A model generated the notes under the pieces. That model ran no database searches and had not been told where the DNA came from. It was given only the letters and a program-made list of their open reading frames with translations. A stretch of 19,269 bases of DNA, taken from a virus. Its lineage: Duplodnaviria > Heunggongvirae > Uroviricota > Caudoviricetes. The stretch lies in IMG/VR virus record IMGVR_UViG_3300029186_000016, positions 1-19,269 of that record, one strand, 5' to 3'. Both the position numbers and the translations under genes were made by a program. Positions 2,895-15,087 of the stretch are shown here, one piece after another. Every line of letters begins with the position of its first letter. The first letter of the stretch is position 1.

Positions 2895-2901
2895 TAGTTA
2901 A

Positions 2902-4065: not shown

Positions 4066-4120
4066 ATACAGCGAACGCCATTGGTTTAGTTGGATATTTA
4101 CTGTGCCGGACAAAAACGGT

Positions 4121-4148
4121 TTGCGGGGAAATCTTAGTTAAGTAGAAT
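4121..4148 (+). promoter_or_regulatory. Candidate sigma70 promoter for the hok/mok mRNA (-35 TTGCGG, 16-bp spacer, -10 TAGAAT)
   Basis: Hexamers read directly from sequence, about 120 nt upstream of mok, consistent with the long structured leader typical of hok mRNAs. Confidence 0.3.
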
Positions 4149-4219
4149 AACTGCGGGTGCTTGAGGCTATCTGTCTCAGGCATGAACACCAAAAGGCAGA
4201 TAGAGAAAAGCCCCAGTTA

Positions 4220-4276
4220 ACATTACGCGTCCTGCAAGACGCTTAACATTAATCTGAGGCCCAATCTATGTCTCAC
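4220..4276 (-). ncRNA. Candidate Sok-like antisense RNA
   Basis: Minus-strand promoter-like hexamers inside the mok 5' end (-35 TTGCCT = plus 4306-4311, 17-bp spacer, -10 TAACCT = plus 4283-4288) would start a transcript about 9 nt into mok running antisense to the leader, as in known hok/sok loci. Contains hairpin GCGTC-n6-GACGC (plus 4227-4242). No clear U-tract terminator, so ends are uncertain. Confidence 0.3.
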
Positions 4277-4480
4277 AAATGTAGGTTAGCCTCTTACGTG
4301 CCGAAAGGCAAGGAGAAGCAGGCTATGAAGCAGCAAAAGGCGATGTTAATCGCCCTGATCGTCATCTGTTTAACCGTCATAGTGACGGCACTGGTAACGA
4401 GGAAAGACCTCTGCGAGGTACGAATCCGAACCGGCCAGATGGAGGTTGCTGTTTTCGTAGACTACGAATCTAGAGAGTAA
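4268..4480 (+). CDS. mok: mok-like reading frame (in-frame N-terminal extension of hok, 70 aa)
   Basis: ORF begins 57 nt upstream of the hok ATG in the same frame, as I recall for the chromosomal mokC/hokC and mokB/hokB pairs. Confidence 0.45.
   Translation: MSHKCRLASYVPKGKEKQAMKQQKAMLIALIVICLTVIVTALVTRKDLCEVRIRTGQMEVAVFVDYESRE
4325..4480 (+). CDS. hok: Hok/Gef-family type I toxin (51 aa)
   Basis: MKQQKAMLIALIVICLTVIVTALVTRKDLCEVRIRTGQMEVAVFVDYESRE has one N-terminal TM helix and the conserved RKDLCEV...EVA...YES signature of Hok/Gef/RelF proteins. GGAG SD upstream. Confidence 0.85.
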   Translation: MKQQKAMLIALIVICLTVIVTALVTRKDLCEVRIRTGQMEVAVFVDYESRE

Positions 4481-4488
4481 GAGTGACC

Positions 4489-4512
4489 TGGCGGGAGAGT
4501 AATCTCCCGCCA
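4489..4512 (+). other. Perfect 10-bp hairpin (TGGCGGGAGA-GTAA-TCTCCCGCCA) 9 nt after the hok stop
   Basis: Read directly. Not followed by a T-tract, so it is more likely an mRNA 3' stability or fold-back element than an intrinsic terminator. A T-rich run follows at about 4564-4579. Confidence 0.5.
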
Positions 4513-4696
4513 CCTCTGATGTGTCGGCATCCTCAACGCACCCGCACTTAACCCGCTTCGACGGTTTTTGTTTTATTTTCAATGCGTTTTAACTTTTTTA
4601 AGACACCGGATATAGAATCCAAAACACTTAAGTAGCGCGCAGGGATAAGAGGGATGGCCCCCTGAAGGGGAGAGCTAATTATCCGGAAGGATTCTG

Positions 4697-4960
4697 ATGA
4701 TGAACATCGAAGAACTGCGTAAAATTTTTTGTGAAGATGGCCTCTATGCTGTGTGCGTTGAAAATGGAAATATTGTTAGTCATTGCCGCGTTCTGTGTTT
4801 GCGAAAGAAGCAAAGAAAGAGTGGGGCTGCGTTAATTAATTTTGTGGATGCTCGGGTGACGGACGGATTTATCTTGCGCGACGATGAGTTTGCCACTTCA
4901 TTACAGGCATTGAAAGAGATCGGAATAAAAGCTGGCTTTTCTGCTTTTTCAGAAGAATAA
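4697..4960 (+). CDS. Hypothetical small protein (87 aa), positionally equivalent to the small gene next to hokD in Qin-type prophages
   Basis: ORF with GGAAGGA SD. Identity to rem not verified; the context resemblance is from memory. Confidence 0.5.
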   Translation: MMNIEELRKIFCEDGLYAVCVENGNIVSHCRVLCLRKKQRKSGAALINFVDARVTDGFILRDDEFATSLQALKEIGIKAGFSAFSEE

Positions 4961-5026
4961 ACTCATCTACAATCTTGCGCGGGGCTGAACTCCCGCTGAG
5001 TAACACCGTGCCACCGGAGAAAACCG

Positions 5027-5305
5027 ATGGCACGCAACGCAAAATATTACAATCATAATAATTCGACCGTTCTTGCCTGCACGCACGAGCGGTATCCTCA
5101 CACATTCAAATCTGACTGGTATCAGCACGACCCCTGCACCGAAGAACAGGTCGAGTGGCTGATTCAGAACTACCGCAGACGTGGGTATGAGTTTAGGAAA
5201 GCCCTCAGCCTCGATTATCGTCTCTGGATAATCTACGTCAGACTCCCTTATTCCGAACGCCCACCGCGTCCGTCCCGCACATTCCAGCAACGGATCTGGA
5301 GGTAA
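5027..5305 (+). CDS. Hypothetical protein (92 aa)
   Basis: GGAGAAAA SD before the ATG. Stop TAA 5303-5305 sits one nt before the GTG start of the DUF968 gene, suggesting coupling. Confidence 0.45.
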   Translation: MARNAKYYNHNNSTVLACTHERYPHTFKSDWYQHDPCTEEQVEWLIQNYRRRGYEFRKALSLDYRLWIIYVRLPYSERPPRPSRTFQQRIWR

Positions 5306-5306
5306 C

Positions 5307-6365
5307 GTGCGGGTATTACTTCGATCTGTTCCGGTACCGGAACTTGGGCTGGTGGTCCTTAAGCCTAGTCGTGAATCCATGCAGGTATTCCGCAGCGGTC
5401 GTGTACTGGTGGAGCCGGAACCGAAAAGCATGCGCGGTCTGCCGTCCGGAGTCGTTCCTGCCGTTCGCCAGCCATTGGCGGAGGATAAATCACTACTGCC
5501 ATTTTTCAGCGATGAGCGGGTGATTCGTGCTGCTGGCGGTGCTGGTGCGCTGTCTGACTGGCTGTTACGCCACGTTAAATCCTGCCAGTGGCCTCATGGT
5601 GACTATCATCACAGTGAAATCGTCATACATCGTTACGGTACCGGCGCGATGGTGTTGTGCTGGCACTGCGACAACCAGCTGCGTGACCAGACCTCCGAAT
5701 CACTCGGGCAACTTGCTCATCAAAACCTGTCAGCATGGATGATTGACGTCATACGCCATGCAGTGAATGGCACGCAGGAGCGGGAATTATCGCTGGCTGA
5801 ATTGTGCTGCTGGGCTTCTGTAAATGATGTAGTGGATGCCATGACCGAAAATATGGCGCGTCGAATCCTGAAGCTTCCGAGTGAAAAAATCCGCTCAGTA
5901 TACCGCGAGAGCGACATCGTACCGGGAGAGCAGACCGCCATCAGCATACTGAAGCAGCGCACAAAAAATATTGCGCCGTTGCCTCACGCCCACCAGCAAC
6001 AGAATCCACCACAGGAAAAGACGGTGGTCAGCATTGCCGTTGATCCGGAGTCACCGGCTCAGTATCTCCAGCGCCAGAAACCACAACGGGAAGATATGCC
6101 TGTATACACGCGTTGGGTAAAAACGCAGAAATGCATGACGTGTGGCAATCAGGCAGATGATCCGCATCACATCATTGGTCATGGACTGGGAGGGATGGGA
6201 ACAAAGGCTGATGATTTGTTTGTTATTCCGCTGTGCCGTAAATGCCATAGCGAACTACACGCCGGGGTAAAAGATTTTGAAGAAAAACACGGCAGCCAGC
6301 TGTTGTTGCTGATTCGTTTTTTAATGCACGCGAGAAATTCGGGTGTCCTGAAGTGGAAAGCATGA
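5307..6365 (+). CDS. DUF968-family protein (YdfU-like) with C-terminal HNH-type Cys/His motif
   Basis: C-terminal CMTCGN...HHIIGHG...CRKCHSELH is an HNH/zinc-finger-like signature. GTG start with TGGAGG SD. Precedes rusA as in lambdoid nin/recombination regions. Confidence 0.7.
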   Translation: MRVLLRSVPVPELGLVVLKPSRESMQVFRSGRVLVEPEPKSMRGLPSGVVPAVRQPLAEDKSLLPFFSDERVIRAAGGAGALSDWLLRHVKSCQWPHGDYHHSEIVIHRYGTGAMVLCWHCDNQLRDQTSESLGQLAHQNLSAWMIDVIRHAVNGTQERELSLAELCCWASVNDVVDAMTENMARRILKLPSEKIRSVYRESDIVPGEQTAISILKQRTKNIAPLPHAHQQQNPPQEKTVVSIAVDPESPAQYLQRQKPQREDMPVYTRWVKTQKCMTCGNQADDPHHIIGHGLGGMGTKADDLFVIPLCRKCHSELHAGVKDFEEKHGSQLLLLIRFLMHARNSGVLKWKA

Positions 6366-6731
6366 ATGACTGAACGCATAGAATTTGTTTTGCCTTACCC
6401 GCCAACGGTGAACACTTACTGGCGACGTCGTGGCAGCACATATTTTGTATCAAAAGCCGGTGAGCGTTATCGCCGGGATGTGGCGCTTATTGTTCGCCAG
6501 CAGCGGCTGAAATTAAACCTGTCCGGAAGGCTGGCGATAAAGATTATTGCAGAGCCACCGGATAAACGTCGTCGTGACCTGGACAATATCCTGAAAGCAC
6601 CACTGGATGCGCTGACGCATGCCGGACTTCTCATAGACGACGAGCAGTTTGATGAAATCAATATTGTGCGCGGTCAGCTCGTTCCTGGGGGGCGGCTGGG
6701 CGTGAAGATTTACAAAATTGAGAGTGAGTGA
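6366..6731 (+). CDS. rusA: Holliday-junction resolvase RusA
   Basis: The 121-aa translation carries the acidic RRRDLDNILKAPLDAL...DDEQ motifs of the RusA family. Its start overlaps the upstream stop. Confidence 0.85.
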   Translation: MTERIEFVLPYPPTVNTYWRRRGSTYFVSKAGERYRRDVALIVRQQRLKLNLSGRLAIKIIAEPPDKRRRDLDNILKAPLDALTHAGLLIDDEQFDEINIVRGQLVPGGRLGVKIYKIESE

Positions 6732-7282
6732 TCGTAAATATGATATATCCGGAAATTACAGGCAAAAGCGGCGAGCATTTACGTCTAAAAACGCTGGAAG
6801 CCGTCTGGATCCAGGGGAAATTACGGATGTGGGGGCGTTGGTCGTACATAGGTGGTGGCAAACCAGGAAATATGTTCAATCAGTTGCTGGCATCCAAAAA
6901 ACTGACAAAAACCGCAATCAATGAAGCCCTGCGTAGAATCAGGGAGTCAGGGATTGATAAACCAGAGCTGGAAGCATTCTTGCGAGAGATGATCGCTGGC
7001 AGACAGAAGAGCTGGTTGTCTCACTGTACTGATGCAGAGGCGTTACGCATTGATGGGGTGATAAGTAAAGCGCTTGCACGTTATCCTGGATTGATTGATA
7101 TCCTGCGGCAAAGGTACGAAGGGCGGGGGATGAGTAAACGCAAAATGGCTGAATTGTTGAATGAGGTTCACCCTGAGTGGTGCTATGCAACATGCCGCAA
7201 TCGTATAGATATGTGGCTGAGAATAGCTGAGTTTATTCTGTATCCACTGATGCGAGATGCATTTTCTTTTACTGACGCTTAG
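6728..7282 (+). CDS. Putative late-gene antiterminator (Q-like)
   Basis: Position immediately after rusA and before a promoter/terminator region, and a WGRW-type motif near the N-terminus as in some Q-family proteins. The true start may be the ATG at 6740. Family membership not verified. Confidence 0.55.
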   Translation: MIVNMIYPEITGKSGEHLRLKTLEAVWIQGKLRMWGRWSYIGGGKPGNMFNQLLASKKLTKTAINEALRRIRESGIDKPELEAFLREMIAGRQKSWLSHCTDAEALRIDGVISKALARYPGLIDILRQRYEGRGMSKRKMAELLNEVHPEWCYATCRNRIDMWLRIAEFILYPLMRDAFSFTDA

Positions 7283-7339
7283 AATCTGGAGGGCGTTTGT
7301 TGTTGCACGAAGAGGATTTTTGGCTGGTAGTAAGGTTTA

Positions 7340-7447
7340 TGCAGTTTTAGAAAAAAAGCTTGTATTTTTAGCCATAAACTGTTTCAATCCAGCTACGCTT
7401 CGCAAAGCTGTACCGCGAGGCGAATAGCAGACATGGACACCTGAAAG
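7340..7447 (+). promoter_or_regulatory. Candidate late promoter (PR'-like) and Q-utilisation region
   Basis: Non-coding, A/T-rich stretch between the Q-like gene and a strong intrinsic terminator. Promoter-like hexamers are present (e.g. TTGTAT at 7360-7365) but the exact -10 is ambiguous. Confidence 0.4.
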
Positions 7448-7471
7448 AACCCGCTTTATGCGGGTTTTTTT
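7448..7471 (+). terminator. Rho-independent terminator (tR'-like)
   Basis: AACCCGC-TTTAT-GCGGGTT stem followed by a T7 run. Confidence 0.75.
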
Positions 7472-7594
7472 ATGCCTGAAAAACGGCACAGAACATTAAA
7501 CGCGCTGGTAGTTGTGAATACTGGTCTTTCAGCTTGCTGGCTTTTTGGACAAGAGTTATTGGTATGTCACGTTAACCGGAAAAGGGAAAAAGGC

Positions 7595-7792
7595 ATGCTA
7601 AAACAGCAGGATATGACCGAAACCGCCAGAGTGGTGTTTAATGAATTAAGCGTCACCGAACCGGCGACCGTCGGGGAAATTGCGCAGAATACTTACCTTT
7701 CACGCGAACGTTGCCAGTTAATACTGACTCAGCTTGTTATGGCGGGTCTGGCAGATTATCAGTTCGGTTGTTACAGACGCCTTCCGCAGTGA
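7595..7792 (+). CDS. Small winged-helix/HTH DNA-binding protein (65 aa)
   Basis: Internal ATG at 7595 with GGGAAAAAGG SD. Translation contains an HTH-like stretch TVGEIAQNTYLSRERCQLILTQLVMAGL. The 7472 start begins inside the terminator T-run with no SD and is rejected. Confidence 0.5.
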   Translation: MLKQQDMTETARVVFNELSVTEPATVGEIAQNTYLSRERCQLILTQLVMAGLADYQFGCYRRLPQ

Positions 7793-7942
7793 AGGCTTTT
7801 TAATTTGTGGTAATGGGCGGCTGGTGGGTGTTAGCGGCACCTGCCAGCCATCTGCTCATGCGTTGGGGTCACAAGCAAACCTCAGGCCCATCTGCTTTGC
7901 GCAAAAGCGGTATGAGCCTATCAGAGAAGTGCTTATTGATCT

Positions 7943-8992
7943 ATGATTAATACTGTAAAAATATCCAGTTGTGAGTTAATCAACGCTGATTGCCTGGAGT
8001 TTATCCAGACCTTACCGGAAAACTCTGTCGATCTGATAGTCACAGACCCGCCATACTTTAAAGTGAAGCCCGAGGGCTGGGATAACCAGTGGAAGGGCGA
8101 CGATGATTACCTGAAATGGCTGGACCAGTGTCTGGCGCAGTTCTGGCGGGTACTGAAGCCTGCCGGAAGTCTTTACCTGTTCTGTGGTCATCGCCTGGCA
8201 TCTGACACCGAAATCATGATGCGTGAGCGCTTTAATGTGCTGAACCACATTATCTGGGCGAAGCCGTCCGGACGCTGGAACGGGTGCAATAAGGAAAGTC
8301 TGCGGGCGTATTTTCCGGCAACAGAGCGCATTCTGTTTGCAGAACATTATCAGGGACCGTATCGCCCGAAAGATGATGGCTATGTGGCACAGGGGCGCGG
8401 GCTAAAACAGCACGTCATGGCCCCGCTGATTTCTTACTTTCGTGATGCGCGTAAATCACTGGGAATAACGTCAAAACAGATAGCGGAAGCCACCGGAAAG
8501 AAAAACATGGCTTCGCACTGGTTTGGTGCCAGTCAGTGGCAGTTACCGAACGAGGGTGATTACAATAAATTGCAGGCGTTGTTTGCGCGTGTTGCGGCAG
8601 AAAAACATCAGCGCGGGGAACTGGAAAAGCCACACCACCAGCTGGTCAGCACATACAGTGAGCTGAACCGGCAGTACACGGAACTGCTGAGTGAATATAA
8701 AAATTTGCGGCGGTATTTCGGTGTGACGGCGCAGGTTCCGTACACCGATGTCTGGACGCATAAACCGGTGCAGTACTATCCAGGAAAACATCCGTGCGAA
8801 AAACCGGCAGAAATGCTGCAGCAGATAATCAACGCGAGCAGTCGTCCGGGTGACCTGGTTGCAGATTTTTTTATGGGCTCAGGTTCAACGGTAAAAGCTG
8901 CACTGGCGCTCGGGCGTCGTGCGATTGGCGTTGAACTGGAGACCGGACGTTTTGAGCAGACAGTCAGGGAAGTTCAGGATTTAATCGTTTGA
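7943..8992 (+). CDS. Beta-class DNA methyltransferase (N6-adenine or N4-cytosine)
   Basis: Motif IV DPPY (LIVTDPPY) is N-terminal and motif I FxGxG (DFFMGSGST) is C-terminal, i.e. the beta-class order. A roughly 150-aa insert with an HTH-like segment lies between them. Confidence 0.85.
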   Translation: MINTVKISSCELINADCLEFIQTLPENSVDLIVTDPPYFKVKPEGWDNQWKGDDDYLKWLDQCLAQFWRVLKPAGSLYLFCGHRLASDTEIMMRERFNVLNHIIWAKPSGRWNGCNKESLRAYFPATERILFAEHYQGPYRPKDDGYVAQGRGLKQHVMAPLISYFRDARKSLGITSKQIAEATGKKNMASHWFGASQWQLPNEGDYNKLQALFARVAAEKHQRGELEKPHHQLVSTYSELNRQYTELLSEYKNLRRYFGVTAQVPYTDVWTHKPVQYYPGKHPCEKPAEMLQQIINASSRPGDLVADFFMGSGSTVKAALALGRRAIGVELETGRFEQTVREVQDLIV

Positions 8993-9041
8993 AACGGATG
9001 ATATTGAAGAATTAATTACGCGTCGTTATTATGCGGCTCCC

Positions 9042-9117
9042 GGCCCTTTAGCTCAGTGGTGAGAGCGAGCGACTCATAATCGCCAGGTCGCTGGTTCAAA
9101 TCCAGCAAGGGCCACCA
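9042..9117 (+). tRNA. ileZ: tRNA with anticodon CAU; resembles tRNA-Ile2 (lysidine type), though Met cannot be excluded from the anticodon alone
   Basis: Cloverleaf folded by hand: acceptor GGCCCTT/AAGGGCC, D-stem GCTC/GAGC, anticodon loop CTCATAA, T-loop TTCAAAT, encoded CCA. Sequence resembles E. coli ileX as I recall it. Confidence 0.8.
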
Positions 9118-9124
9118 TCACATA

Positions 9125-9201
9125 CCGCCATTAGCTCATCAGGATAGAGCGCCAGCCTTCGAAGCTGGTTGCGCGGGGTTCGAGTCCTCGATGGCGGTCC
9201 A
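9125..9201 (+). tRNA. argN: tRNA-Arg (anticodon UCG)
   Basis: Cloverleaf folded by hand: acceptor CCGCCAT/ATGGCGG (unusual C1:G72), D-stem GCTC/GAGC, anticodon stem CCAGC/GCTGG with loop CTTCGAA, T-loop TTCGAGT, encoded CCA. Confidence 0.75.
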
Positions 9202-9214
9202 TTATCTGTACCCT

Positions 9215-9291
9215 GCGTTGTTAGCTCAGCCGGACAGAGCAATTGCCTTCTAAGCAATCGGTCACTGGTTCGAATCCAGTACAACGCGCCA
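9215..9291 (+). tRNA. argO: tRNA-Arg (anticodon UCU)
   Basis: Cloverleaf folded by hand: acceptor GCGTTGT/ACAACGC, D-stem GCTC/GAGC, anticodon stem ATTGC/GCAAT with loop CTTCTAA, T-loop TTCGAAT, encoded CCA. Confidence 0.85.
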
Positions 9292-9305
9292 CACTTATTT
9301 TCCCT

Positions 9306-9331
9306 GGCTCGCTTTTGCGGGCCTTTTTTTT
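9306..9331 (+). terminator. Rho-independent terminator after the tRNA trio
   Basis: GGCTCGC-TTTT-GCGGGCC stem (one G-U pair) followed by T8. Confidence 0.7.
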
Positions 9332-9526
9332 AAATGTCTCACAATTCAGACGGTTGACTGTTGTCTGGTTGGCGGGGAGTTTGTTAAAAGAAACTGGCAT
9401 GGTGAATCCCCCTGTGCGGAGGGGCAATCAGCGAGTAGGTATATGGGATAATCGCGGATTCAGGTGCTGGTACTGAATTCACCGGGAGGCACCCGGCACC
9501 ATGCAATGGCACATAGCGCCACTCTC

Positions 9527-9562
9527 CAGCCCCTCTCCGGAGGGGCTGTTTATATTGATTTT
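9527..9562 (+). terminator. Strong GC hairpin plus T-rich tract (plus-strand terminator; also lies 3' of the minus-strand ORF)
   Basis: Perfect 9-bp stem CAGCCCCTC-TCCG-GAGGGGCTG followed by TTTATATTGATTTT. Confidence 0.65.
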
Positions 9563-9582
9563 GTCAGATGTGAGTAAACTGC

Positions 9583-9918
9583 TTATGGACTTTGTTGTTT
9601 TAGCCCATAAGGACATATTTGCAGAGTGCAACGGTTATTAAAGCATTCATTCAATACGTTATCTGTATTTGTAGGGCATTCCTGGCTGTTTTTGATTAAA
9701 TTCCAGAATGTTTTATTGAATGGTACTACGTTGTAAATGGTTACAGGTAGCACTTTGTTATTGAGCATGATGCCTGTGTGAGTCAGTGTAAATATACTTT
9801 CAGGAGGTAAGAAAGCATCCGATTGATACCAGATTATTAATTTTATTTTACTCCATATGACTGAAAAAGATATTCCGCATGATGGCTGGATAACTGTATC
9901 AATCACAATCCACTTCAT
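9583..9918 (-). CDS. Hypothetical protein (111 aa), AT-rich cargo gene on the opposite strand
   Basis: Only long ORF in a visibly AT-rich stretch. AAGGAAA SD 6 nt upstream of the ATG on the minus strand. Stop TAA. No recognisable motif or signal peptide. Confidence 0.45.
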
Positions 9919-10163
9919 TTAGTTTCCTTGTTTATGCCTTGCTGGTGATGTTCTGAAAAGTATAAATGATATTTTTGATTGTAAACCATAGAGCAGAATT
10001 ATTTTTCTGATGTTGTTTATTGTTTATTTAAATGCAGGGTGGTTTATATCTCGTCTTGTAGTTTATCCATGCATATCTGCTTGATGATGAGGTTTTTATT
10101 TAAGGTATGGTTTTGTGTTTTTTCTGTATTACATGTCAGGTATTTTAAAGAATCATTTTTCAG

Positions 10164-12035
10164 ATGGTGGAAAGAACCATGGCATTTAAACACTATGATG
10201 TTGTCAGGGCGGCGTCGCCGTCAGATCTTGCGGAAAAGCTGACACATAAACTGAAAGAGGGCTGGCAGCCGTTTGGTAGTCCGGTGGCCATAACCCCTTA
10301 TACCCTGATGCAGGCGATTGCAGCAGAAGGTGATGTGGTCGTCAGTGGTGCAACTGAGCCGGAGTGGTACTACGTCATCGTACTGGCCGGGCAATCCAAT
10401 GCCATGGCTTACGGTGAAGGGCTTCCGCTTCCGGATTCTTACGATGCGCCCCACCCACGCATTAAGCAACTGGCCCGTCGCAACACAGTGACTCCCGGTG
10501 GTAAAGCATGCGCATTTAACGACATCATTCCGGCAGACCACTGCCTGCATGATGTTCAGGATATGAGCGCACTGAATCATCCGAAGGCAGACCTGAGCAA
10601 AGGGCAGTACGGCTGTGTCGGCCAGGGCTTACATATTGCCAAAAAACTGCTTCCGTATATCCCGAATAACGCGGGGATCCTGCTGGTACCATGCTGTCGT
10701 GGTGGTTCGGCATTCACCCAGGGCGCGGAGGGGACATTCAGTGCGGACACGGGGGCCAGCCAGGATTCGGCACGCTGGGGTGTGGGTAAACCGTTATATC
10801 AGGACCTGATCGCACGCACCAAAGCGGCATTACAGAGGAACCCGAAAAATGTGTTGCTGGCGGTGTGCTGGATGCAGGGCGAATTTGACATGAGCGCTGC
10901 CACCTACGCACAGCAACCGGACCTGTTCACGGCCATGCTGAAGCAGTTCCGTACTGACCTTTCCGGATTTAACGCGCAGTGCCATGGCGGCAGTGCTGCA
11001 GTTGTACCGTGGATTTGTGGCGACACGACGTATTACTGGAAAAACACATACGGCACACAGTATGACTCCGTCTACGGCGCGTACAAAAACAGGGAGAGCG
11101 ACAACGTTTTCTTTGTGCCGTTCATGACCGACGGTAACGGCAACAACACGCCCACCAACTTACCGGCAGAAGACCCGGATATTGCTGATGCAGGTTATTA
11201 CGGCGCGCAATCCCGTAGTAATGGTAATTGGGTATCATCAAATCGCCCGACGCATTTCAGCTCATGGGCGCGTCGTGGCATTATTCCCGATCGTATGGCA
11301 ACTGCTATTCTGAACGTAGCCGGTCGCACCTTAGCCTTCATTAGTGGTAAGGCACCGGAAATCAAACCCTCGCCCGGCGGCGACACTCCATCGGGGCCGT
11401 CTGATGGTGACACATCCGTTCGTACAGTCTCCCTGCTGCCGACAGCCGGAGAGGCTGCTGCGCAGGGCTGGACCATCACCGGCGGCAGTGTTGCGCTGGA
11501 AGATGGTGTGTTTAAGGTTACCAAGCAGAGCAATAAAACCTGGTCCCTGATGCATCCGGTGGATGACGCAGTCTCCCTGCTGACACGGGGTGGCAGACTG
11601 AGCTGTAAGTTTCGACTGTCAGGCGCACTGACCAACAACCAGTTCGGTCTGGGAATTTATCTGTATACCGATGTAGCGTTACCTGACGTCGTGGCGATGA
11701 CCGGGACTGGTAACCCGTTCCTGATGTCGTTCTTCACCCAGACCACAGACGGCAAACTGAATCTGATGCATCACAGGAAAGCAGGAAACACAAAGTTGGG
11801 CGAGTTCGGGAATTACAGTAACGACTGGCAGACGCTGGAGCTGGTGTTCACCGCCGGCAGTGCCACGGTTACTCCGAAACTGAATGGAGTGGCTGGCCCG
11901 GCATTCCAGGTCATAAAAGACAGTCTGACACTGGGGCTGAATGCGCTGACGCTGACGGATATTACCAAAAATGCAGCGTATGGCGTTGAGATAGAAAGTC
12001 TGGTGCTGGAGATAAATGCACCGGCATCATCATAA
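10164..12035 (+). CDS. nanS-p: Prophage sialate O-acetylesterase (NanS-p-like; SGNH/SASA esterase core)
   Basis: VIVLAGQSNAMAYGEG carries the GQSN catalytic-serine motif of the SASA/DUF303 esterase domain. Size of about 620 aa and position between the tRNAs and the lysis genes match what I recall for nanS-p of EHEC prophages. The start could instead be the ATG at 10179. Confidence 0.75.
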   Translation: MVERTMAFKHYDVVRAASPSDLAEKLTHKLKEGWQPFGSPVAITPYTLMQAIAAEGDVVVSGATEPEWYYVIVLAGQSNAMAYGEGLPLPDSYDAPHPRIKQLARRNTVTPGGKACAFNDIIPADHCLHDVQDMSALNHPKADLSKGQYGCVGQGLHIAKKLLPYIPNNAGILLVPCCRGGSAFTQGAEGTFSADTGASQDSARWGVGKPLYQDLIARTKAALQRNPKNVLLAVCWMQGEFDMSAATYAQQPDLFTAMLKQFRTDLSGFNAQCHGGSAAVVPWICGDTTYYWKNTYGTQYDSVYGAYKNRESDNVFFVPFMTDGNGNNTPTNLPAEDPDIADAGYYGAQSRSNGNWVSSNRPTHFSSWARRGIIPDRMATAILNVAGRTLAFISGKAPEIKPSPGGDTPSGPSDGDTSVRTVSLLPTAGEAAAQGWTITGGSVALEDGVFKVTKQSNKTWSLMHPVDDAVSLLTRGGRLSCKFRLSGALTNNQFGLGIYLYTDVALPDVVAMTGTGNPFLMSFFTQTTDGKLNLMHHRKAGNTKLGEFGNYSNDWQTLELVFTAGSATVTPKLNGVAGPAFQVIKDSLTLGLNALTLTDITKNAAYGVEIESLVLEINAPASS

Positions 12036-12120
12036 AAAGTGAGCCAGTCAAATGGAAGGTATCGTTAAACTCACCGGTAGTGTCAGTGGGTCGTCTGAGA
12101 TGCCTGCATGAGTTATCAGA

Positions 12121-12150
12121 GCCATCAGTACTTAACTGGTGGCTTTTTTT
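12121..12150 (+). terminator. Rho-independent terminator between nanS-p and the holin gene
   Basis: GCCATCAG-TACTTAA-CTGGTGGC stem (one G-U pair) followed by T7. Confidence 0.7.
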
Positions 12151-12185
12151 ATTGTTGTCAGCTTCCGGATAACGGGAGACGGGGT

Positions 12186-12401
12186 ATGTACCAGATGGAA
12201 AAAATCACAACAGGTGTGTCATACACCACGTCAGCGGTGGGAACGGGCTACTGGTTCCTGCAGTTGCTGGACAGGGTTTCCCCGTCTCAGTGGGCGGCAA
12301 TAGGCGTGCTGGGGAGTCTGCTGTTTGGGTTGCTGACATATCTGACTAACCTGTATTTCAAAATCAGAGAGGACCGTCGTAAGGCGGCGCGGGGAGAGTA
12401 A
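12186..12401 (+). CDS. S: Holin, phage-21 S-type pinholin with dual start (Met1 and Met4)
   Basis: [10 protein letters not shown]...[40 protein letters not shown] closely resembles the S21 pinholin as I recall it. GGAGACGGGG SD before ATG 12186, with a second ATG at 12195. The track's 12108 start runs through the terminator and is rejected. Confidence 0.8.
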
Positions 12402-12405
12402 AGCG

Positions 12406-12750
12406 ATGAAGAAAAAATACGAACTGGTTGTTAAAGGGATAAATAATTACCCGAATAAGATTACTGTTACTGTGGCACTGGAAATTGGTGGGTATCCGTC
12501 ACTGTTGTTGCCAGATGTGGCGATTAGTCTTGACCGTACTGAAGATGCCACGCTGGAGTTTTACGAAGCTGAGGCGAAAAAGCAGGCGAAGCAGTTTTTC
12601 ATGGATGTTGCTGCCGGGTTATGTGAAGGGGATGGTCCGTTGCCGGAAAAGCGCCCCGTAATTTTAGAGGCGCAGGATGTGTTGATAACCTACAGAGGAA
12701 AACTACCGGGAATAATTACTGGTTCTCTGAAGACTCCACCGCTGGCCTGA
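12406..12750 (+). CDS. Hypothetical protein inserted between holin and endolysin (YdfR/DUF1327-like position), 114 aa
   Basis: ORF starts 5 nt after the holin stop and ends about 50 nt before the endolysin. A gene in this position exists in Qin-type prophages as I recall; identity not verified. Confidence 0.5.
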   Translation: MKKKYELVVKGINNYPNKITVTVALEIGGYPSLLLPDVAISLDRTEDATLEFYEAEAKKQAKQFFMDVAAGLCEGDGPLPEKRPVILEAQDVLITYRGKLPGIITGSLKTPPLA

Positions 12751-12800
12751 AGACTTAACATATCCAGGGATTTGAAATCGATAAACCCTGATAAATATCC

Positions 12801-13334
12801 ATGAACACCAAAATCAAATACGGCCTGTCGGCTGCCGTTCTGGCGCTGATTGCCGCAGGTGCGCCTGCGCCTGAAATCCTCGACCAGTTTCTGGATGAAA
12901 AGGAAGGTAACCACACCACGGCATACCGTGATGGCGCGGGTATCTGGACCATCTGCCGCGGTGCCATCCTGGTGGATGGCAAACCTGTCGTTCCGGGCAT
13001 GAAGTTGTCGAAGGAAAAATGCGACCGGGTTAACGCCATTGAGCGTGATAAGGCGCTGGCATGGGTGGAGAAAAACATCAGAGTGCCATTGAGTGAACCC
13101 CAGAAAGCGGGGATCGCGTCATTCTGTCCGTACAACATTGGCCCCGGTAAGTGTTTTCCGTCGACGTTTTATAAACGAATTAATGCAGGTGATCGCAGGG
13201 GAGCGTGTGAGGCGATTCGCTGGTGGATTAAGGACGGTGGCAGAGACTGCCGTATTCGCTCAAATAACTGTTACGGTCAGGTATCCCGTCGTGACCAGGA
13301 GAGCGCGCTGGCGTGCTGGGGAATCGACAGATAA
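12801..13334 (+). CDS. R: Endolysin, T4-lysozyme-like muramidase with N-terminal signal-anchor-release (SAR) segment
   Basis: Gly/Ala-rich weakly hydrophobic N-terminus (YGLSAAVLALIAAGAPAP) followed by the E-x8-D-x5-T catalytic spacing (EKEGNHTTAYRDGAGIWT). Pairing with a pinholin is expected for SAR endolysins. Confidence 0.8.
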   Translation: MNTKIKYGLSAAVLALIAAGAPAPEILDQFLDEKEGNHTTAYRDGAGIWTICRGAILVDGKPVVPGMKLSKEKCDRVNAIERDKALAWVEKNIRVPLSEPQKAGIASFCPYNIGPGKCFPSTFYKRINAGDRRGACEAIRWWIKDGGRDCRIRSNNCYGQVSRRDQESALACWGIDR

Positions 13335-13428
13335 GCAGAATATTTTGCTAATCAATGACGTTGGCCAAGGCGGACGGATAACACGAAATCCTGCGAACTG
13401 GCAAAATGTAAGTGAATAAAAGTAAAAA

Positions 13429-13463
13429 CCCCGTTTGTTGGCTGCAAGCGGGGTTTTGTGTTT
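13429..13463 (+). terminator. Rho-independent terminator-like hairpin downstream of the endolysin
   Basis: 9-bp stem CCCCGTTTG/CAAGCGGGG (one G-U pair) with a 7-nt loop, followed by TTTTGTGTTT. Confidence 0.55.
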
Positions 13464-13532
13464 CCTGACTCTGGAAAAGTCAAAGGAGAAAGTGTGTTTG
13501 ATTTTAGCAAACTGATTCGGGAGATTCGAGTG

Positions 13533-13631
13533 ATGGCTGAAAAATTATCCACCTGGAAGTTCATTCTTATCTGGCTGGTGTTTGTGATTATGGCCTCCGG
13601 TTATTTCATCGGTCAGATACGCTGGTGGTGA
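13533..13631 (+). CDS. Hydrophobic mini-ORF (32 aa) between endolysin and Rz
   Basis: Hand-translated: MAEKLSTWKFILIWLVFVIMASGYFIGQIRWW, a single predicted TM helix. GGAGA SD about 9 nt upstream. Its stop TGA overlaps the region of the Rz ATG (TGAAATG). Under the track's length cutoff. Confidence 0.35.
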   Translation: MAEKLSTWKFILIWLVFVIMASGYFIGQIRWW

Positions 13632-13632
13632 A

Positions 13633-14100
13633 ATGAACCGCGTACTGTGCGTGGTCATCATTGCCCTGCTGGTGGCCTGTGGTGCGCTTAGTCTGGGGCT
13701 GAATCATTACCGTGATAACGCCATAACCTACAAAGAGCAGCGCGATAAAAAAGTCAGTGAGCTGGAGCAGGCAAATGCAACCATTACTGATATGCAGCAG
13801 CGCCAGCGTGATGTTGCTGCACTTGATGCCAGATACTCGAGGGAATTAGCCGATGCGAGAGCTGAAAATGAAACTCTGCGCGCTGACGTTGCCGCTGGTC
13901 GTAAGCGCCTGCGGATCAACGCCACCTGCCCCGGTACCGTGCGTGAAGCCCCCACCACCTCCGGCGTGGATAATGCAACCGGCCCCCGACTGGCAGACAC
14001 CGCTGAACGGGATTATTTCACTCTCAGAGAGCGGTTGATGCTGATGCAGAAGCAGCTGGAAGTGGCGCAGGAATATATCCGCACTCAGTGCCTGAAATAA
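13633..14100 (+). CDS. Rz: Rz i-spanin
   Basis: N-terminal TM helix (VLCVVIIALLVACGALSL) then a coiled-coil-like periplasmic domain, with an embedded +1-frame lipoprotein gene. Confidence 0.75.
   Translation: MNRVLCVVIIALLVACGALSLGLNHYRDNAITYKEQRDKKVSELEQANATITDMQQRQRDVAALDARYSRELADARAENETLRADVAAGRKRLRINATCPGTVREAPTTSGVDNATGPRLADTAERDYFTLRERLMLMQKQLEVAQEYIRTQCLK
13868..14038 (+). CDS. Rz1: Rz1 o-spanin lipoprotein, embedded in Rz in another frame
   Basis: MKLCALTLPLVVSAC lipobox followed by a proline-rich segment (PPAPVPCVKPPPPPAW). Lies entirely within the Rz gene. Confidence 0.7.
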   Translation: MKLCALTLPLVVSACGSTPPAPVPCVKPPPPPAWIMQPAPDWQTPLNGIISLSESG

Positions 14101-14353
14101 GTTTTGCTGATGCGCGGTATTGTCGCCGTATCCCCGCATTAACAGAGACCGCAGCCCGACCGGGAGACTCCTCTGCGCGAGTGTGCGGGGATAATCAAAA
14201 ACGATACACACCGGGGTTTACCGCGTTAACGGAGCGCGGCGTTGTCCCCTCATAGTCGCCTGTCCGGTGCGATGGTGGAAGAAACCGGACTACATTGAAA
14301 ATGATAACCATTATCATTTTTGCGGGTCCTTTCCGGCGATCCGGGCCGTTACG

Positions 14354-14365
14354 GGGCGGCGACCT
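14354..14365 (+). other. cosN cohesive-end sequence GGGCGGCGACCT (lambda-type)
   Basis: Exact 12-mer present, flanked by ...GGCCGTTACG on the left and CGCGGGTTTTCGCTATTTATGAAAATTTTCCGG on the right, matching the lambda cos junction as I recall it. About 190 nt upstream of nu1. Confidence 0.8.
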
Positions 14366-14541: not shown

Positions 14542-15061
14542 ATGAAGGTTAATAAAAAGAAACTTGCCGAAATTTTCAACGTGGATCCGCGAACGATTGA
14601 ACGCTGGCAGTCTCAGGGACTCCCTTGCGTCTCCGGAGGTGGTAAGGGCGTTGAATCTGTATTTGATACCGCCATGGCAATTCAGTGGTATGCGCAGAGG
14701 GAAGCTGATATCGAAAATGAAAAACTCCGTAAAGAGGTTGAGGATTACAGGGCTGCCAGTGAGGCAGATCTCCAGCCTGGGACTATTGAGTACGAACGCC
14801 ATCGACTTACGCGTGCGCAGGCCGACGCACAGGAGCTGAAGAATGCCAGAGACTCCGCAGAGGTGGTGGAAACCGCATTCTGTACTTTCGTGCTGTCACG
14901 GATCGCAGGTGAAATTGCCAGTATTCTTGACGGGATCCCTCTCTCGGTACAGCGGCGTTTTCCGGAACTGGAAAACCGACATGTTGATTTCCTGAAACGG
15001 GATATCATCAAAGCCATGAACAAAGCAGCCGCGCTGGATGAACTGATACCGGGGTTGCTGA

Positions 15062-15087
<26 letters not shown>
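14542..15087 (+). CDS. nu1: Terminase small subunit (lambda Nu1-like)
   Basis: The 181-aa translation resembles lambda gpNu1 as I recall it (N-terminal wHTH, C-terminal ...[17 protein letters not shown]). Its 3' end overlaps the GTG start of A. Confidence 0.9.

What the first reader, a model, noticed from the sequence alone, without database searches (positions are those of the whole stretch)
12186..13631. Lysis cassette: dual-start pinholin and SAR endolysin split by an inserted ORF, with a terminator and a hydrophobic mini-ORF before Rz/Rz1
The holin has the phage-21 pinholin signature with two in-frame starts (M1, M4), i.e. an antiholin/holin pair. The endolysin has a SAR-like N-terminus and an E/D/T triad. 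Between them lies a 114-aa ORF of unknown role. After the endolysin there is a terminator-like hairpin (13429-13463), then a 32-codon single-TM ORF (13533..13631) whose stop abuts the Rz start. A terminator between R and Rz is unusual for lambdoid cassettes. The mini-ORF could be a small membrane modulator of lysis timing or a leader peptide coupling Rz translation.
Basis: partly seen in the sequence, partly recalled or inferred. Interest (0 to 1): 0.45.

Follow-up and report, generated by a model that had tools for sequence, protein, structure and literature searches.

The report
Antisense-guarded mini membrane gene before Rz
An ordinary phage-21-type lysis cassette carries, between its endolysin and spanin genes, a small mobile unit: a hairpin, a ribosome-site-hiding leader and a 45-codon membrane-protein gene that probably holds its own antisense promoter. 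The unit is spread through phages of many bacteria, is uncharacterised, and sits in about one in six E. coli genomes.

Summary
They are an S21-type holin with Met1 and Met4, a DUF1327/YdfR gene, a SAR-type GH24 endolysin, and Rz/Rz1. All lie downstream of a Q antiterminator in an E. coli lambdoid prophage.

The hairpin and the mini-ORF are not separate oddities. They form one conserved mobile cassette:
- an A-tract, a 14-bp hairpin (13425-13457) and a U-tract
- an anti-SD/SD hairpin
- a 45-codon ORF that starts at GTG 13494, not ATG 13533

The ORF shows a clear coding signature and encodes an N-in single-pass membrane protein (phrog_6632, function unknown). The same cassette follows five endolysin types and precedes three spanin types. 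It also lies in baseplate and tail operons, in Enterobacterales, Pseudomonas and an Azoarcus MAG. 924 of 5426 complete E. coli genomes carry it.

Codons 3-5 are frozen at synonymous sites and read TGnTAnnnT on the minus strand. That matches an extended -10 promoter aimed at the hairpin, predicting a ~78-nt antisense RNA over the ORF's ribosome site. No expression data were available, so the antisense RNA and any toxicity or lysis-timing role are inferred.

The parts
12186..12401 (+). Class II (phage 21 S-type) holin, 71 aa, with in-frame starts at 12186 (Met1) and 12195 (Met4). The extension is Met-Tyr-Gln and has no Lys or Arg.
   Evidence: PF04971 E 9e-33 and phrog holin families. PGAP calls it 'class II holin'. 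One weakly and one strongly hydrophobic segment.
12406..12750 (+). DUF1327/YdfR-family gene, 114 aa, inserted between holin and endolysin. It is AT-richer than its neighbours.
   Evidence: PF07041 E 2.4e-45. PGAP calls it 'YdfR family'. It is absent from PA2, where S and R are adjacent. GC is 0.467 against 0.54-0.55 for neighbours. K-12 YdfR binds the RNase E N-terminal domain (PMC13232886).
12801..13334 (+). SAR-type GH24 endolysin, 177 aa. Residues ~8-24 form a Gly/Ala-rich N-terminal segment; E35, D44 and T50 are present.
   Evidence: PF00959 E 1.3e-23. PDB hits 3hde/3hdf (lysozyme) and 4zpu (RrrD). Sequence and hydropathy.
13335..13423 (+). Post-endolysin spacer. It is shared with phages that lack the cassette, and the cassette's left boundary lies at its end.
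   Evidence: Homology with PA2 and SPN3UB runs to about 13424 and then ends.
13425..13457 (.). HP1: a 14-bp hairpin flanked by an A-tract (13416-13428) and a U-tract (13454-13463), so it is terminator-like on both strands.
   Evidence: Scan and fold. 95% of cells are paired and 8 of 12 pairs show compensatory change across 19 diverse copies. An A-tract is present in all 19.
13461..13489 (+). Leader hairpin HP2: anti-SD UUUCCU (13461-13466), stem 13467-13470 with 13478-13481, and SD AGGAGA (13484-13489), which pairs with the anti-SD.
   Evidence: Fold. Stems differ between relatives (CCTTG/CAAGG, CCTG/CAGG, CATG/CATG, CTTG/CAAG, TGACT/AGTCA, CCTTCTG/CAGAAGG). HP2 core is 89% paired with 3 of 5 pairs compensatory; anti-SD:SD is 79% paired.
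13494..13631 (+). 45-codon ORF (GTG start, TGA stop): MFDFSKLIREIRVMAEKLSTWKFILIWLVFVIMASGYFIGQIRWW. It has a charged N-terminus (net +2), one TM segment (~23-41) and C-terminal RWW.
   Evidence: PGAP WP_000459345. phrog_6632 E 1e-29, matching 1-45 of 45. Homologues at 40-98% identity. Synonymous variation at most codons. Hydropathy.
13533..13535 (+). It is a possible secondary start, preceded by GGGAG at 13519-13523.
   Evidence: ATG in 28 of 28 close relatives and codon 10 is GAG in 27 of 28. Position 14 is Leu or Phe in some distant relatives, so an internal start is not universal.
13501..13509 (-). Predicted extended -10 promoter on the minus strand, TGCTAAAAT, which is the complement of codons 3-6.
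   Evidence: Synonymous sites of codons 3-5 are frozen (GAT 25/26, codon 4 third base T 28/28, AGC 27/27). TGnTAnnnT is kept in register in 11 of 12 distinct strings, and also in L097, L122, L175 and L196, although the amino acids differ (DFS, DIS, DYS, NFI, KYI, DYI, NSS). The hexamer is kept at the same distance from HP1 in type X, where the coding differs.
13417..13495 (-). Predicted ~78-nt antisense RNA. It runs from a start near the ORF's start codon, across the SD and HP2, to HP1 and its U-tract.
   Evidence: Inferred from the promoter above plus HP1 as a minus-strand terminator. The fold gives two hairpins with z = -4.46. No expression data.
13633..14100 (+). Rz i-spanin, 155 aa. Its ATG lies one base after the mini-ORF stop, and GGTGGTGA within the last mini-ORF codons is its only SD-like sequence.
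   Evidence: PF03245 E 8e-49. N-terminal TM segment. PGAP calls it 'lysis protein'.
13853..14038 (+). Rz1 o-spanin lipoprotein, embedded in the +1 frame of Rz, with lipobox ...VVSAC.
   Evidence: PF06085 E 7.6e-21. Sequence.

Best explanation
The region is a canonical phage-21-type lysis cassette (pinholin, SAR endolysin, Rz/Rz1) in the Q-dependent late operon of an E. coli lambdoid prophage. It carries two AT-richer insertions.

The first insertion is a DUF1327/YdfR gene at the S/R junction.

The second, at the R/Rz junction, is a self-contained mobile cassette. In order, it holds:
- a bidirectional terminator-like hairpin (HP1)
- a short leader whose UUUCC pairs with the Shine-Dalgarno sequence around a small hairpin (HP2)
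- a weak GTG start
- a 45-aa N-in single-pass membrane protein

The cassette has no room for a sense promoter. The protein can therefore be made only from transcripts that read through HP1, here Q-antiterminated late transcripts. Even then its translation is throttled by the occluded SD and the GTG start.

Codons 3-5 double as a minus-strand extended -10 promoter. That promoter would fire a ~78-nt antisense RNA ending at HP1 and complementary to the ORF's ribosome-binding region. In a lysogen this RNA would silence leaky expression. During lytic growth it would be outrun by late mRNA.

The ORF stops one base before the Rz ATG, so ribosomes finishing it are delivered to Rz.

Shown: the gene identities, the unit's mobility, the coding signature, structure covariation and the frozen nucleotides. 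Inferred: read-through dependence, SD occlusion in vivo, the antisense RNA, coupling to Rz, and any toxicity or lysis-timing effect.
For: Gene identities. A Q antiterminator lies upstream at 6728-7282.

One unit:
- The A-tract, HP1, U-tract, HP2, SD and ORF travel together in Salmonella, Citrobacter, Edwardsiella, Yersinia, Sodalis, Brenneria, Pantoea and Pseudomonas, in an Azoarcus MAG and in metagenomes. Similarity starts at the A-tract and ends at the stop codon.
- PA2 has ant at the same junction, with homology ending at 13424.
- GC is 0.44-0.46 for the cassette against 0.55 for R and Rz.

Structure: 90.1% of cells are paired against 80.6% in shuffles (0/500). 13 pairs have double changes against 5.4 expected (0/500). 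Slid controls give 39-62%.

Coding: synonymous variation is seen at most codons, for example five Arg codons at codon 9 and four Gly codons at codon 36. Every relative is a small protein of 24 to 95 aa.

Weak starts: GTG or TTG in 15 of 15 relatives and 51 of 51.

Antisense promoter:
- Codons 3-5 are frozen.
- TGnTAnnnT is kept in register while the amino acids change. The only variable base of codon 5 (AGC or ATC) is the free 'n'.
- L197 reads TGATATAAT, the full consensus.
- The minus-strand U-tract is present in all 19 representatives. This includes the Azoarcus copy, where the plus-strand U-tract is degenerate.
- HP2 and anti-SD G.U pairs favour the minus strand, 19 to 8.

Context and prevalence: one distant member sits among ParE/RelB/HicB loci with 600 nt of non-coding DNA upstream. 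The cassette is in 924 of 5426 E. coli genomes.
Against: - There are no transcript, ribosome or protein data for either strand.
- The simple sigma-70 scan did not call the minus-strand site, because its -35 is poor (TCGAAT or TCGCAA, 3 of 6).
- One distant member (L194) and the type Y variants lack the motif in register.
- A/T-rich early codons could be selected for open mRNA structure. That would explain part of the frozen pattern, but not AGC/ATC.
- HP1 G.U pairs favour the plus strand, 14 to 4, so strand assignment by wobble pairs is mixed.
- A toxin gene without its own promoter is atypical for type I systems.
- P2/Mu-like hosts of the cassette have no known antitermination to read through HP1.
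Confidence: 0.5

Rival explanations
1. This is a late-only small membrane protein cassette with no antisense RNA. HP1 is simply a sense-strand terminator or insulator that only antiterminated polymerase passes. The leader throttles translation. The frozen nucleotides in codons 3-5, 10 and 12 serve translation initiation, for example an unstructured A/U-rich start region and an internal SD for Met14.
For: HP1 wobble pairs favour the plus strand, 14 to 4. A plus-strand U-tract is present in 18 of 19 copies. GGAG or GAGG precedes Met14 in close relatives. Type Y and L194 lack the minus-strand motif. The -35 is poor.
Against: An open-structure preference does not explain an invariant AGC/ATC at codon 5. 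It also does not explain why exactly the T, G, T, A and T positions of an extended -10 stay fixed while the amino acids change. It does not account for the strictly conserved A-tract at the cassette's left edge, or for the Azoarcus copy, whose hairpin is terminator-like only on the minus strand.
Confidence: 0.25
2. The 45-aa protein is a dedicated lysis accessory factor, such as a regulator of SAR-endolysin release, pinholin timing or spanin activation. It is placed between endolysin and spanin for that reason.
For: The cassette follows five unrelated endolysin types: GH24, Peptidase_M15_4, GH19, GH108 and a fifth type (L090). It precedes three spanin types: Rz/Rz1, DUF2570+LysC and an unnamed pair. 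In lysis contexts its stop lies 1 nt before the i-spanin ATG, whatever the spanin family.
Against: The same cassette lies between baseplate genes, tail-tip genes K and I, and tape-measure and distal-tail genes. It also lies after a tail-tube-like gene, in a T7_gp14-type internal-virion-protein region, and next to type II TA loci. There is no similarity to any known holin, antiholin or releasin family in Pfam, NCBIfam or PHROGs.
Confidence: 0.15
3. The ORF matters only as an upstream reading frame. Its translation opens or feeds the Rz start (leader-peptide coupling), and the peptide itself has no function.
For: The junction reads TGA-A-ATG, and GGTGGTGA in the last codons is the only SD-like sequence for Rz. 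The Gifsy-1 isrK-orf45-anrP locus works this way (PMC4825925).
Against: The amino-acid sequence, the TM segment and the RWW end are conserved with abundant synonymous change. In orf45 the nucleotide sequence is conserved and the amino-acid sequence is not. Many copies are followed by genes with their own SD 4-20 nt away, or by a gene on the other strand.
Confidence: 0.06
4. There is nothing special here: an ordinary terminator after R and a chance hydrophobic ORF.
For: The number of terminator-like sites in the region is at chance level. Many annotations leave the ORF out.
Against: There is in-frame conservation across orders of bacteria, a PHROG family, structure covariation and a fixed architecture.
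Confidence: 0.02

Closest known systems
Phage 21 lysis cassette (S21 pinholin, R21 SAR endolysin, Rz/Rz1) and its E. coli prophage copies (DLP12 essD-rrrD-rzpD)
   Same: The holin matches the P21 holin family with Met1 and Met4 starts. The endolysin matches PDB 3hde/3hdf and 4zpu (RrrD), with E35/D44/T50 and a Gly/Ala-rich N-terminus. Rz1 is embedded in Rz.
   Different: There are two insertions (DUF1327 and the hairpin-ORF cassette). The holin's N-terminal extension is MYQ with no positive charge. From memory, S21 has MKS, and the Lys matters for antiholin behaviour, so the antiholin role of the long form is not assured.
Qin prophage essQ-ydfR-rrrQ of E. coli K-12 (YdfR, DUF1327)
   Same: The same family and the same position between holin and lysozyme. 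PGAP names it YdfR family.
   Different: The product here is 114 aa, against 103 aa for K-12 YdfR. The reported RNase E N-terminal-domain binding and RNA co-purification (PMC13232886) were shown only for the K-12 protein.
Type I toxin-antitoxin loci (hok/sok, ldr/rdl, ibs/sib). A sok copy lies in this same window at 4155-4330.
   Same: Both have a small hydrophobic single-TM protein of under 60 aa, an occluded ribosome site, and a predicted short antisense RNA over the translation-initiation region. That RNA has its own promoter inside the gene and its own terminator. One relative sits among TA loci.
   Different: There is no sense promoter inside the unit. It is embedded in phage late operons and is unrelated in sequence to known families (no Pfam, NCBIfam, PADLOC or Rfam hit). 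Neither toxicity nor the antisense RNA has been shown.
Gifsy-1 isrK-orf45-anrP (PMC4825925)
   Same: A terminator hairpin lies directly upstream of a 45-codon ORF whose ribosome site sits in a hairpin. Expression needs terminator read-through. The ORF's stop abuts the next gene's start, giving translational coupling.
   Different: orf45 has two AUG starts, and its amino-acid sequence is not conserved. The regulator there is a sense sRNA acting in trans. There is no Rfam IsrK hit here. This is an analogy, not homology.
Phage antisense RNAs: P22 sar (blocks ant translation), lambda OOP and paQ (listed in PMC5415839). Also BTP1 STnc6030, antisense to late genes (bioRxiv 10.1101/787010).
   Same: A short or late-gene antisense RNA encoded inside a temperate phage, opposing translation or stability of a phage mRNA.
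   Different: Those are fixed features of particular phages. This one would be part of a portable cassette that carries its target with it.
Morons of temperate phages (extra genes between late-operon genes, e.g. HK97 gp15; concept cited in PMC4104026)
   Same: It is inserted between conserved neighbours, is AT-richer than them, encodes a small membrane protein and occurs at many positions in late operons.
   Different: Classical morons have a promoter upstream and a terminator downstream. Here the terminator is upstream, there is no sense promoter, and nothing separates the ORF from the next gene.

Membership tests
Class II / phage 21 S-type pinholin | Sequence match to the P21 holin S family | tested here: met
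   PF04971 E 9e-33, residues 5-67.
Class II / phage 21 S-type pinholin | Two TM segments, the first weakly hydrophobic | tested here: met
   Only residues ~36-54 exceed the hydropathy threshold. Residues ~10-28 are Gly/Ser/Thr-rich.
Class II / phage 21 S-type pinholin | Dual-start motif giving holin and antiholin, with an extra positive charge on the long form | tested here: inconclusive
   Met1 and Met4 are present, but the extension MYQ carries no Lys or Arg. The charge requirement is recalled from the S21 and lambda S literature, not tested here.
SAR endolysin (R21 type) | GH24 lysozyme fold with a Glu-8aa-Asp-5aa-Thr triad | tested here: met
   PF00959. PDB 3hde/3hdf and 4zpu at E about 1e-15. 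E35, D44 and T50 are in the sequence.
SAR endolysin (R21 type) | N-terminal signal-anchor-release segment rich in Gly, Ala and Ser | tested here: met
   GLSAAVLALIAAGAPAP, residues 8-24, with moderate hydropathy. Release from the membrane is not testable here.
DUF1327 / YdfR | Full-length match to the family profile | tested here: met
   PF07041 E 2.4e-45, 1-112. phrog_406 E 4e-64.
Two-component spanin Rz/Rz1, embedded architecture | An i-spanin with an N-terminal TM segment, and an o-spanin lipoprotein encoded inside it in another frame | tested here: met
   PF03245 and PF06085. TM segment and lipobox VVSAC. Coordinates.
phrog_6632 small protein family | Full-length match to the 45-position profile | tested here: met
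   E 1.2e-29, positions 1-45 of 45.
Intrinsic (Rho-independent) terminator | A G+C-rich stem followed by a U-tract | tested here: met
   14 pairs, 6 of them G-C, followed by TTTTGTGTTT. On the minus strand the tail is TTTTTACTTTTATT.
Intrinsic (Rho-independent) terminator | Termination in vivo or in vitro | not testable with these tools
   This needs Term-seq or reporter assays.
Type I toxin-antitoxin system | Small hydrophobic membrane peptide | tested here: met
   45 aa with one TM segment.
Type I toxin-antitoxin system | Antisense or partly complementary sRNA with its own promoter | tested here: inconclusive
   A conserved TGnTAnnnT lies on the minus strand, with HP1 as its terminator. No transcript evidence.
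Type I toxin-antitoxin system | The toxin mRNA has its own promoter | tested here: not met
   There are 36 nt between HP1 and the SD, and similarity starts at the A-tract, so no sense promoter lies inside the unit.
Type I toxin-antitoxin system | Toxicity of the peptide, relieved by the RNA | not testable with these tools
   This needs expression experiments.
Moron (promoter-gene-terminator insert in a late operon) | Inserted between genes that are adjacent in relatives, with deviant composition | tested here: met
   PA2 and relatives. GC content.
Moron (promoter-gene-terminator insert in a late operon) | Own promoter upstream and terminator downstream | tested here: not met
   The terminator is upstream, and the ORF abuts the next gene.
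IsrK/orf45 locus | Homology to the IsrK RNA or to orf45 | tested here: not met
   No Rfam IsrK hit at the gathering threshold or at E up to 10. The properties of orf45 differ.

The most novel reading that the evidence does not exclude
The hairpin plus mini-ORF is a previously undescribed family of portable, antisense-RNA-controlled small-membrane-protein cassettes with type I toxin-antitoxin-like logic but no sense promoter. The family has spread through the late operons of temperate phages of Gamma- and Betaproteobacteria. The antitoxin-like promoter is written into codons 3-5 of the protein gene, and the upstream 'terminator' belongs to the antisense RNA. In lambdoid phages, including Stx phages, it sits at the endolysin/spanin junction. 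There it would gate a membrane-active peptide, and through coupling Rz, to the very end of the lytic cycle.
Probability: 0.4. Interest if true: 0.7.

Novelty: new variant of a known kind. Interest (0 to 1): 0.55.

Why it matters
**Prevalence and annotation.** About 17% of complete E. coli genomes carry this unit inside their lysis cassettes, including O157:H7 (Stx1a, Stx2a and Stx2c phages) and ST131. Annotation pipelines call it inconsistently, no function is known, and its RNA leader is in no Rfam family.

**If the antisense RNA and translational gate are real.** The unit would add a regulatory layer to the last step of the lytic cycle in phages whose lysis releases Shiga toxin. It would also be an example of a gene whose first codons are constrained by a promoter on the other strand.

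**Phage evolution.** The unit is a compact, clearly delimited case for asking how morons move. The same ~210-bp unit, with a sharp left boundary at an A-tract and a right boundary at its stop codon, is found next to unrelated genes in several bacterial orders.

**The neighbouring gene.** The DUF1327/YdfR gene now has an experimental lead, RNase E binding.

Tried and rejected
- **Known families for the 45-aa protein:** Pfam, NCBIfam and PADLOC gave nothing. Only phrog_6632, of unknown function, matched.
- **Known RNA families:** Rfam at the gathering threshold on the window and on 15 diverse loci gave nothing at the leader. So did the permissive search on 13250-13700; the best hit was the rimP leader on the minus strand, 28 bits against 47 needed.
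- **AgvB/AsxR anti-sRNAs:** rejected. They lie at the PR' moron site, not between R and Rz.
- **Pas sRNAs:** PasA/PasC lie between the esterase and the holin, upstream of this finding. PasB could not be compared because no sequence is held.
- **IsrK-orf45 homology:** rejected; it is only an architectural analogue.
- **The scan's minus-strand promoter at 13616..13587:** its -10 (ATTATG on the plus strand) is not conserved in SPN3UB.
- **Intramolecular pairing as the cause of the frozen codons 3-5 and 12:** the candidate stems (AAAGUCAAA/UUUGAUUUU in the window; GCAA/UUGC) are not conserved between subgroups.
- **RNAalifold on the MAFFT alignment:** it found only HP1. HP2 had to be specified by hand because its register shifts between subgroups.
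- **Met14 as a universal second start:** weakened by distant relatives with Leu or Phe at that position.
- **Wobble-pair asymmetry to assign the transcribed strand:** the answer was mixed.
- **Genome AR_0372 as a proxy for the whole window:** it is identical only from about 12000 onward, so the upstream genes were identified directly.
Full report
**Where the window comes from.** The 12100-14150 stretch is 100% identical to many E. coli chromosomes and about 94-95% identical to Stx1a, Stx2a and Stx2c converting phages. Upstream lie RusA, a Q-type antiterminator (6728-7282) and a DNA methylase. Then come three tRNAs, an STnc100-type sRNA and a SASA esterase. Downstream lies Nu1. The finding therefore sits in the Q-dependent late operon of a lambdoid prophage.

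**Checking the observation.**
- The holin (12186-12401) matches the phage 21 holin family (PF04971, E 9e-33). It begins MYQM, so Met1 and Met4 are both present.
- The 114-aa ORF (12406-12750) is a full-length DUF1327/YdfR protein (E 2.4e-45).
- The lysozyme (12801-13334) is GH24. It matches the solved structures 3hde/3hdf and RrrD 4zpu. It has E35/D44/T50 and a Gly/Ala-rich N-terminal segment.
- Rz (13633-14100) and the embedded Rz1 (13853-14038) match their families.
- The hairpin is 13425-13457, with 14 pairs and a U-rich tail.
- An ORF ends at 13631, one base before the Rz ATG. It is in a different frame from Rz.

The sequence features are therefore real.

**Correcting the mini-ORF.** PGAP, when it annotates the ORF at all, starts it at GTG 13494, giving 45 aa (WP_000459345). 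PHROGs holds a 45-position family, phrog_6632, of unknown function. It matches residues 1-45 at E 1e-29. tblastn and profile searches find relatives at 40-98% identity:
- in Escherichia, Salmonella, Citrobacter, Enterobacter, Klebsiella and Yersinia
- in Edwardsiella, Pantoea, Brenneria, Sodalis, Providencia and Pseudomonas
- in an Azoarcus MAG and in metagenomes

An exhaustive profile search of 1.84 billion representatives finds only 80 clusters, all 29-95 aa.

Across 28 distinct coding sequences most codons vary synonymously. Codon 9 uses CGG, AGG, CGT, CGC and CGA, and codon 36 uses all four Gly codons. This is a translated gene.

In the close family every copy starts with GTG or TTG: 15 of 15 and 51 of 51. 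Some distant relatives use ATG.

The product has a charged N-terminal 22 residues (net +2), one hydrophobic segment (~23-41) and a C-terminal RWW. By the positive-inside rule it should be N-in, C-out. That is an inference.

**The hairpin and the ORF are one mobile unit.** In every relative examined the same order is found: an A-tract (consensus AAAGCAAAA), a G+C-rich hairpin, a U-tract, GTTTCY, a 4-7-bp hairpin, the SD, the start and the ORF. Similarity begins at the A-tract and ends at the stop codon.

- In 933W-like phage PA2, homology with the window runs from the end of R to 13424 and then stops. PA2 carries an ant gene there instead.
- The unit is AT-richer (0.44-0.46 GC) than R and Rz (0.55).
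- On 19 diverse copies a hand-specified structure (HP1, anti-SD:SD, HP2) has 90.1% of cells paired, against 80.6% in shuffles (0/500).
- 13 pairs show changes on both sides, against 5.4 expected (0/500). Slid controls fall to 39-62%.
- HP2 stems differ outright between subgroups: CCTTG/CAAGG, CCTG/CAGG, CATG/CATG, CTTG/CAAG, TGACT/AGTCA and CCTTCTG/CAGAAGG.
- In single-sequence folds the conserved UUUCY after HP1 pairs with the SD. The leader therefore occludes the ribosome site.
- A pattern search for the enteric leader in viral contigs gave 69 hits: 54 with an intact family ORF and 4 with a disrupted one. A further 11 front variant small membrane ORFs that also end in (I/V)RWW (types X and Y).

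**Context.** The unit follows GH24, Peptidase_M15_4, GH19, GH108 and one further endolysin type. It precedes Rz/Rz1, DUF2570+LysC or an unnamed spanin-like pair. It also lies:
- between baseplate V-like and W-like genes
- between tail-tip genes K and I
- after tape-measure, tail-tube-like and tail-tip genes
- in a T7_gp14-type region
- in one lineage, among ParE/RelB/HicB loci

The unit is enriched at the endolysin/spanin junction but is not lysis-specific. In E. coli it is common, in 924 of 5426 complete genomes.

**An overlapping signal inside the ORF.** Against the background of free synonymous change, five codons are frozen:
- codon 3: GAT in 25 of 26
- codon 4: third base T in 28 of 28
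- codon 5: AGC in 27 of 27
- codon 10: GAG in 27 of 28
- codon 12: CGA in 27 of 27

Read on the minus strand, codons 3-6 give TTTGCTAAAATC, that is TGnTAAAAT. This is the consensus form of an extended -10 promoter (TGnTATAAT, established knowledge).

The motif survives where the amino acids do not. The pairs are DFS/TGCTAAAAT, DIS/TGCTAATAT, DLS/TGCTAAGAT and DYS/TGCTATAGT. They continue with EFS/TGCTAAACT, NFI and DFI/TGATAAAAT, DII/TGATAATAT and KYI/TGATATACT. The last two are DYI/TGATATAAT and NSS/TGCTAGAAT. Codon 5 is Ser AGC or Ile ATC, and the one base that differs is the free 'n' of TGn. In type X the first codons encode something else (MNINL), yet TAATAT sits at the same distance from HP1.

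A start about 7 nt downstream of this -10 falls on the ORF's start codon. The transcript would run across the SD and HP2 into HP1. On the minus strand HP1 is followed by a U-tract in all 19 representatives. That includes the Azoarcus copy, whose plus-strand tail is not U-rich. The predicted RNA (13495 to about 13417, ~78 nt) folds into two hairpins with z = -4.46.

Exceptions are L194 and type Y. The -35 is weak (TCGNNN), which extended -10 promoters tolerate. The frozen CGA is the only Arg codon that gives T-x-G there. Wobble-pair asymmetry is mixed: HP1 favours the plus strand 14 to 4, and HP2 with the anti-SD favours the minus strand 19 to 8. That is what would be expected if both strands are used, but it proves nothing.

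**How it most likely works.** The lysis genes are a standard pinholin/SAR-endolysin/spanin set. The inserted unit has no room for a sense promoter: 36 nt separate HP1 from the SD, and there is no conservation upstream. Its protein can therefore be made only from read-through transcripts, here Q-modified late transcription. It is further held down by SD occlusion and a GTG start.

I infer that a constitutive antisense RNA from the embedded promoter adds a third lock in lysogens. Late transcription would overwhelm it, or shut it off by head-on transcription. The ORF's stop lies one base before the Rz ATG, and the only SD-like sequence for Rz (GGTGGTGA) is inside the ORF's last codons. Translation of the unit therefore probably feeds Rz.

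What the protein does in the membrane is unknown. The tight control suggests it is harmful if made early. This is type I toxin-antitoxin logic, but a defining feature of that family, a toxin promoter, was tested and not met. I therefore say it works like such a system, not that it is one.

**Met14.** Distant relatives have Leu or Phe there, so this is at most a subgroup feature.

**The 114-aa ORF.** It belongs to DUF1327/YdfR and occupies the same place as ydfR in the K-12 Qin prophage. PA2 lacks it. A 2026 study found that K-12 YdfR binds the catalytic N-terminal half of RNase E in two-hybrid and pull-down assays. It also co-purifies with RNA. Over-expression had little effect on the transcriptome (PMC13232886). 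A role in protecting or processing late mRNA is a reasonable guess, but only a guess.

**Comparison with known systems.** The closest architectural precedent is Gifsy-1 isrK-orf45-anrP. There, terminator read-through yields an mRNA whose 45-codon ORF has a hidden ribosome site and is coupled to the next gene (PMC4825925). That ORF is conserved as nucleotides rather than as protein, has AUG starts, and is opened by a sense sRNA. There is no sequence relationship.

Phage antisense RNAs such as P22 sar, lambda OOP and paQ (PMC5415839) and BTP1 STnc6030 (10.1101/787010) are functional precedents. Morons are the evolutionary precedent, but the promoter-gene-terminator layout is inverted here.

**Verdict.** The lysis cassette itself is ordinary. 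The hairpin plus mini-ORF is a real, widespread, uncharacterised mobile unit with an unusual conserved leader. Strong comparative evidence points to a second function written into its first codons, most likely an antisense promoter. It is a new variant of known kinds (moron, or antisense-controlled small membrane protein). Everything beyond the comparative evidence needs the experiments listed.

Noticed in passing
window 4155-4330 (+): Rfam sok antitoxin RNA (120 bits). A hok/sok-type type I toxin-antitoxin locus therefore lies in the early region of the same prophage.
   Followed up: no
window 9042-9288 and 9368-9557 (+): Three tRNA genes are followed by an STnc100-family sRNA (133 bits), upstream of the SASA esterase. 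A 2026 preprint relates STnc100 to the PasD sRNAs of pathogenic E. coli.
   Followed up: partly
window 12118-12146 (+): A terminator-like hairpin (12 pairs, then TTTTTATTGTT) lies between the esterase and the holin. This is the position where PasA/PasC sRNAs are described (esterase-PasA-holin-lysozyme). Identity with PasA was not checked, because no sequence was available.
   Followed up: partly
window 13335-13423; L123 (PA2) 2501-2640; L004 (SPN3UB) 2347-2430: A ~90-nt spacer after the endolysin is conserved even in phages without the cassette. It holds a loop-less palindrome (TTGGCCAA here, GTGGCGCCAC in SPN3UB). PA2 continues with a different terminator-like hairpin (GGCACC-gtaa-GGTGCC, then TTTGTCATTTCTG) at the point where the cassette starts here.
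   Followed up: partly
L004 (Salmonella phage SPN3UB) 2236-2346: An unannotated 36-codon hydrophobic ORF (MSKRDVSALCFLMAAAVAISGNDGWGWLIFAGIIIL) overlaps the endolysin stop (ATGA), upstream of the spacer and the cassette.
   Followed up: no
L126, L147, L148, L150, L157, L170, L189, L192 (type X); L128, L137, L168 (type Y); L133, L182: The same leader fronts variant small membrane ORFs. Type X is 52 aa, starts with GTG and ends VVRWW. Type Y has an 8-codon uORF (MCREVCSL) overlapping the GTG of a ~56-aa ORF that ends AIRWW just before Rz. L133 and L182 have two small TM ORFs in tandem, the second ending AIRWW.
   Followed up: partly
L130, L145, L169, L179: These are decayed copies of the 45-codon ORF. 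Three have poly-G frameshifts in codons 9-11, and one has its start changed from GTG to GTA. The leader is intact in all.
   Followed up: no
L199 and L200, 1501-1635: A distant family member (44 aa, ATG start) keeps HP1, a 7-bp HP2 and the minus-strand TGCTAGAAT. It stands alone among ParE/RelB, YafQ/RelB and HicB loci, with ~600 nt of non-coding DNA upstream.
   Followed up: partly
L006/L111 (Pseudomonas phages) ~2670-2790: In P. aeruginosa siphophages the cassette lies in a cluster of small ORFs between tail genes K and I. It is followed by another 38-codon hydrophobic ORF.
   Followed up: no
window 12186-12197: The holin's N-terminal extension is Met-Tyr-Gln, without the positive charge that, from memory, gives the long forms of S21 and lambda S their antiholin character.
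   Followed up: no
window 14354-14365: GGGCGGCGACCT matches the lambda cohesive-end sequence as I recall it. It lies ~180 nt upstream of Nu1 (14542-15087). The 440-nt Rz-Nu1 gap is otherwise unannotated.
   Followed up: no
window 1-11300 versus NZ_CP027134.1: The genome that is identical across the lysis cassette is not collinear with the window upstream of about 11300. This is mosaicism immediately upstream of the esterase's 3' end.
   Followed up: partly
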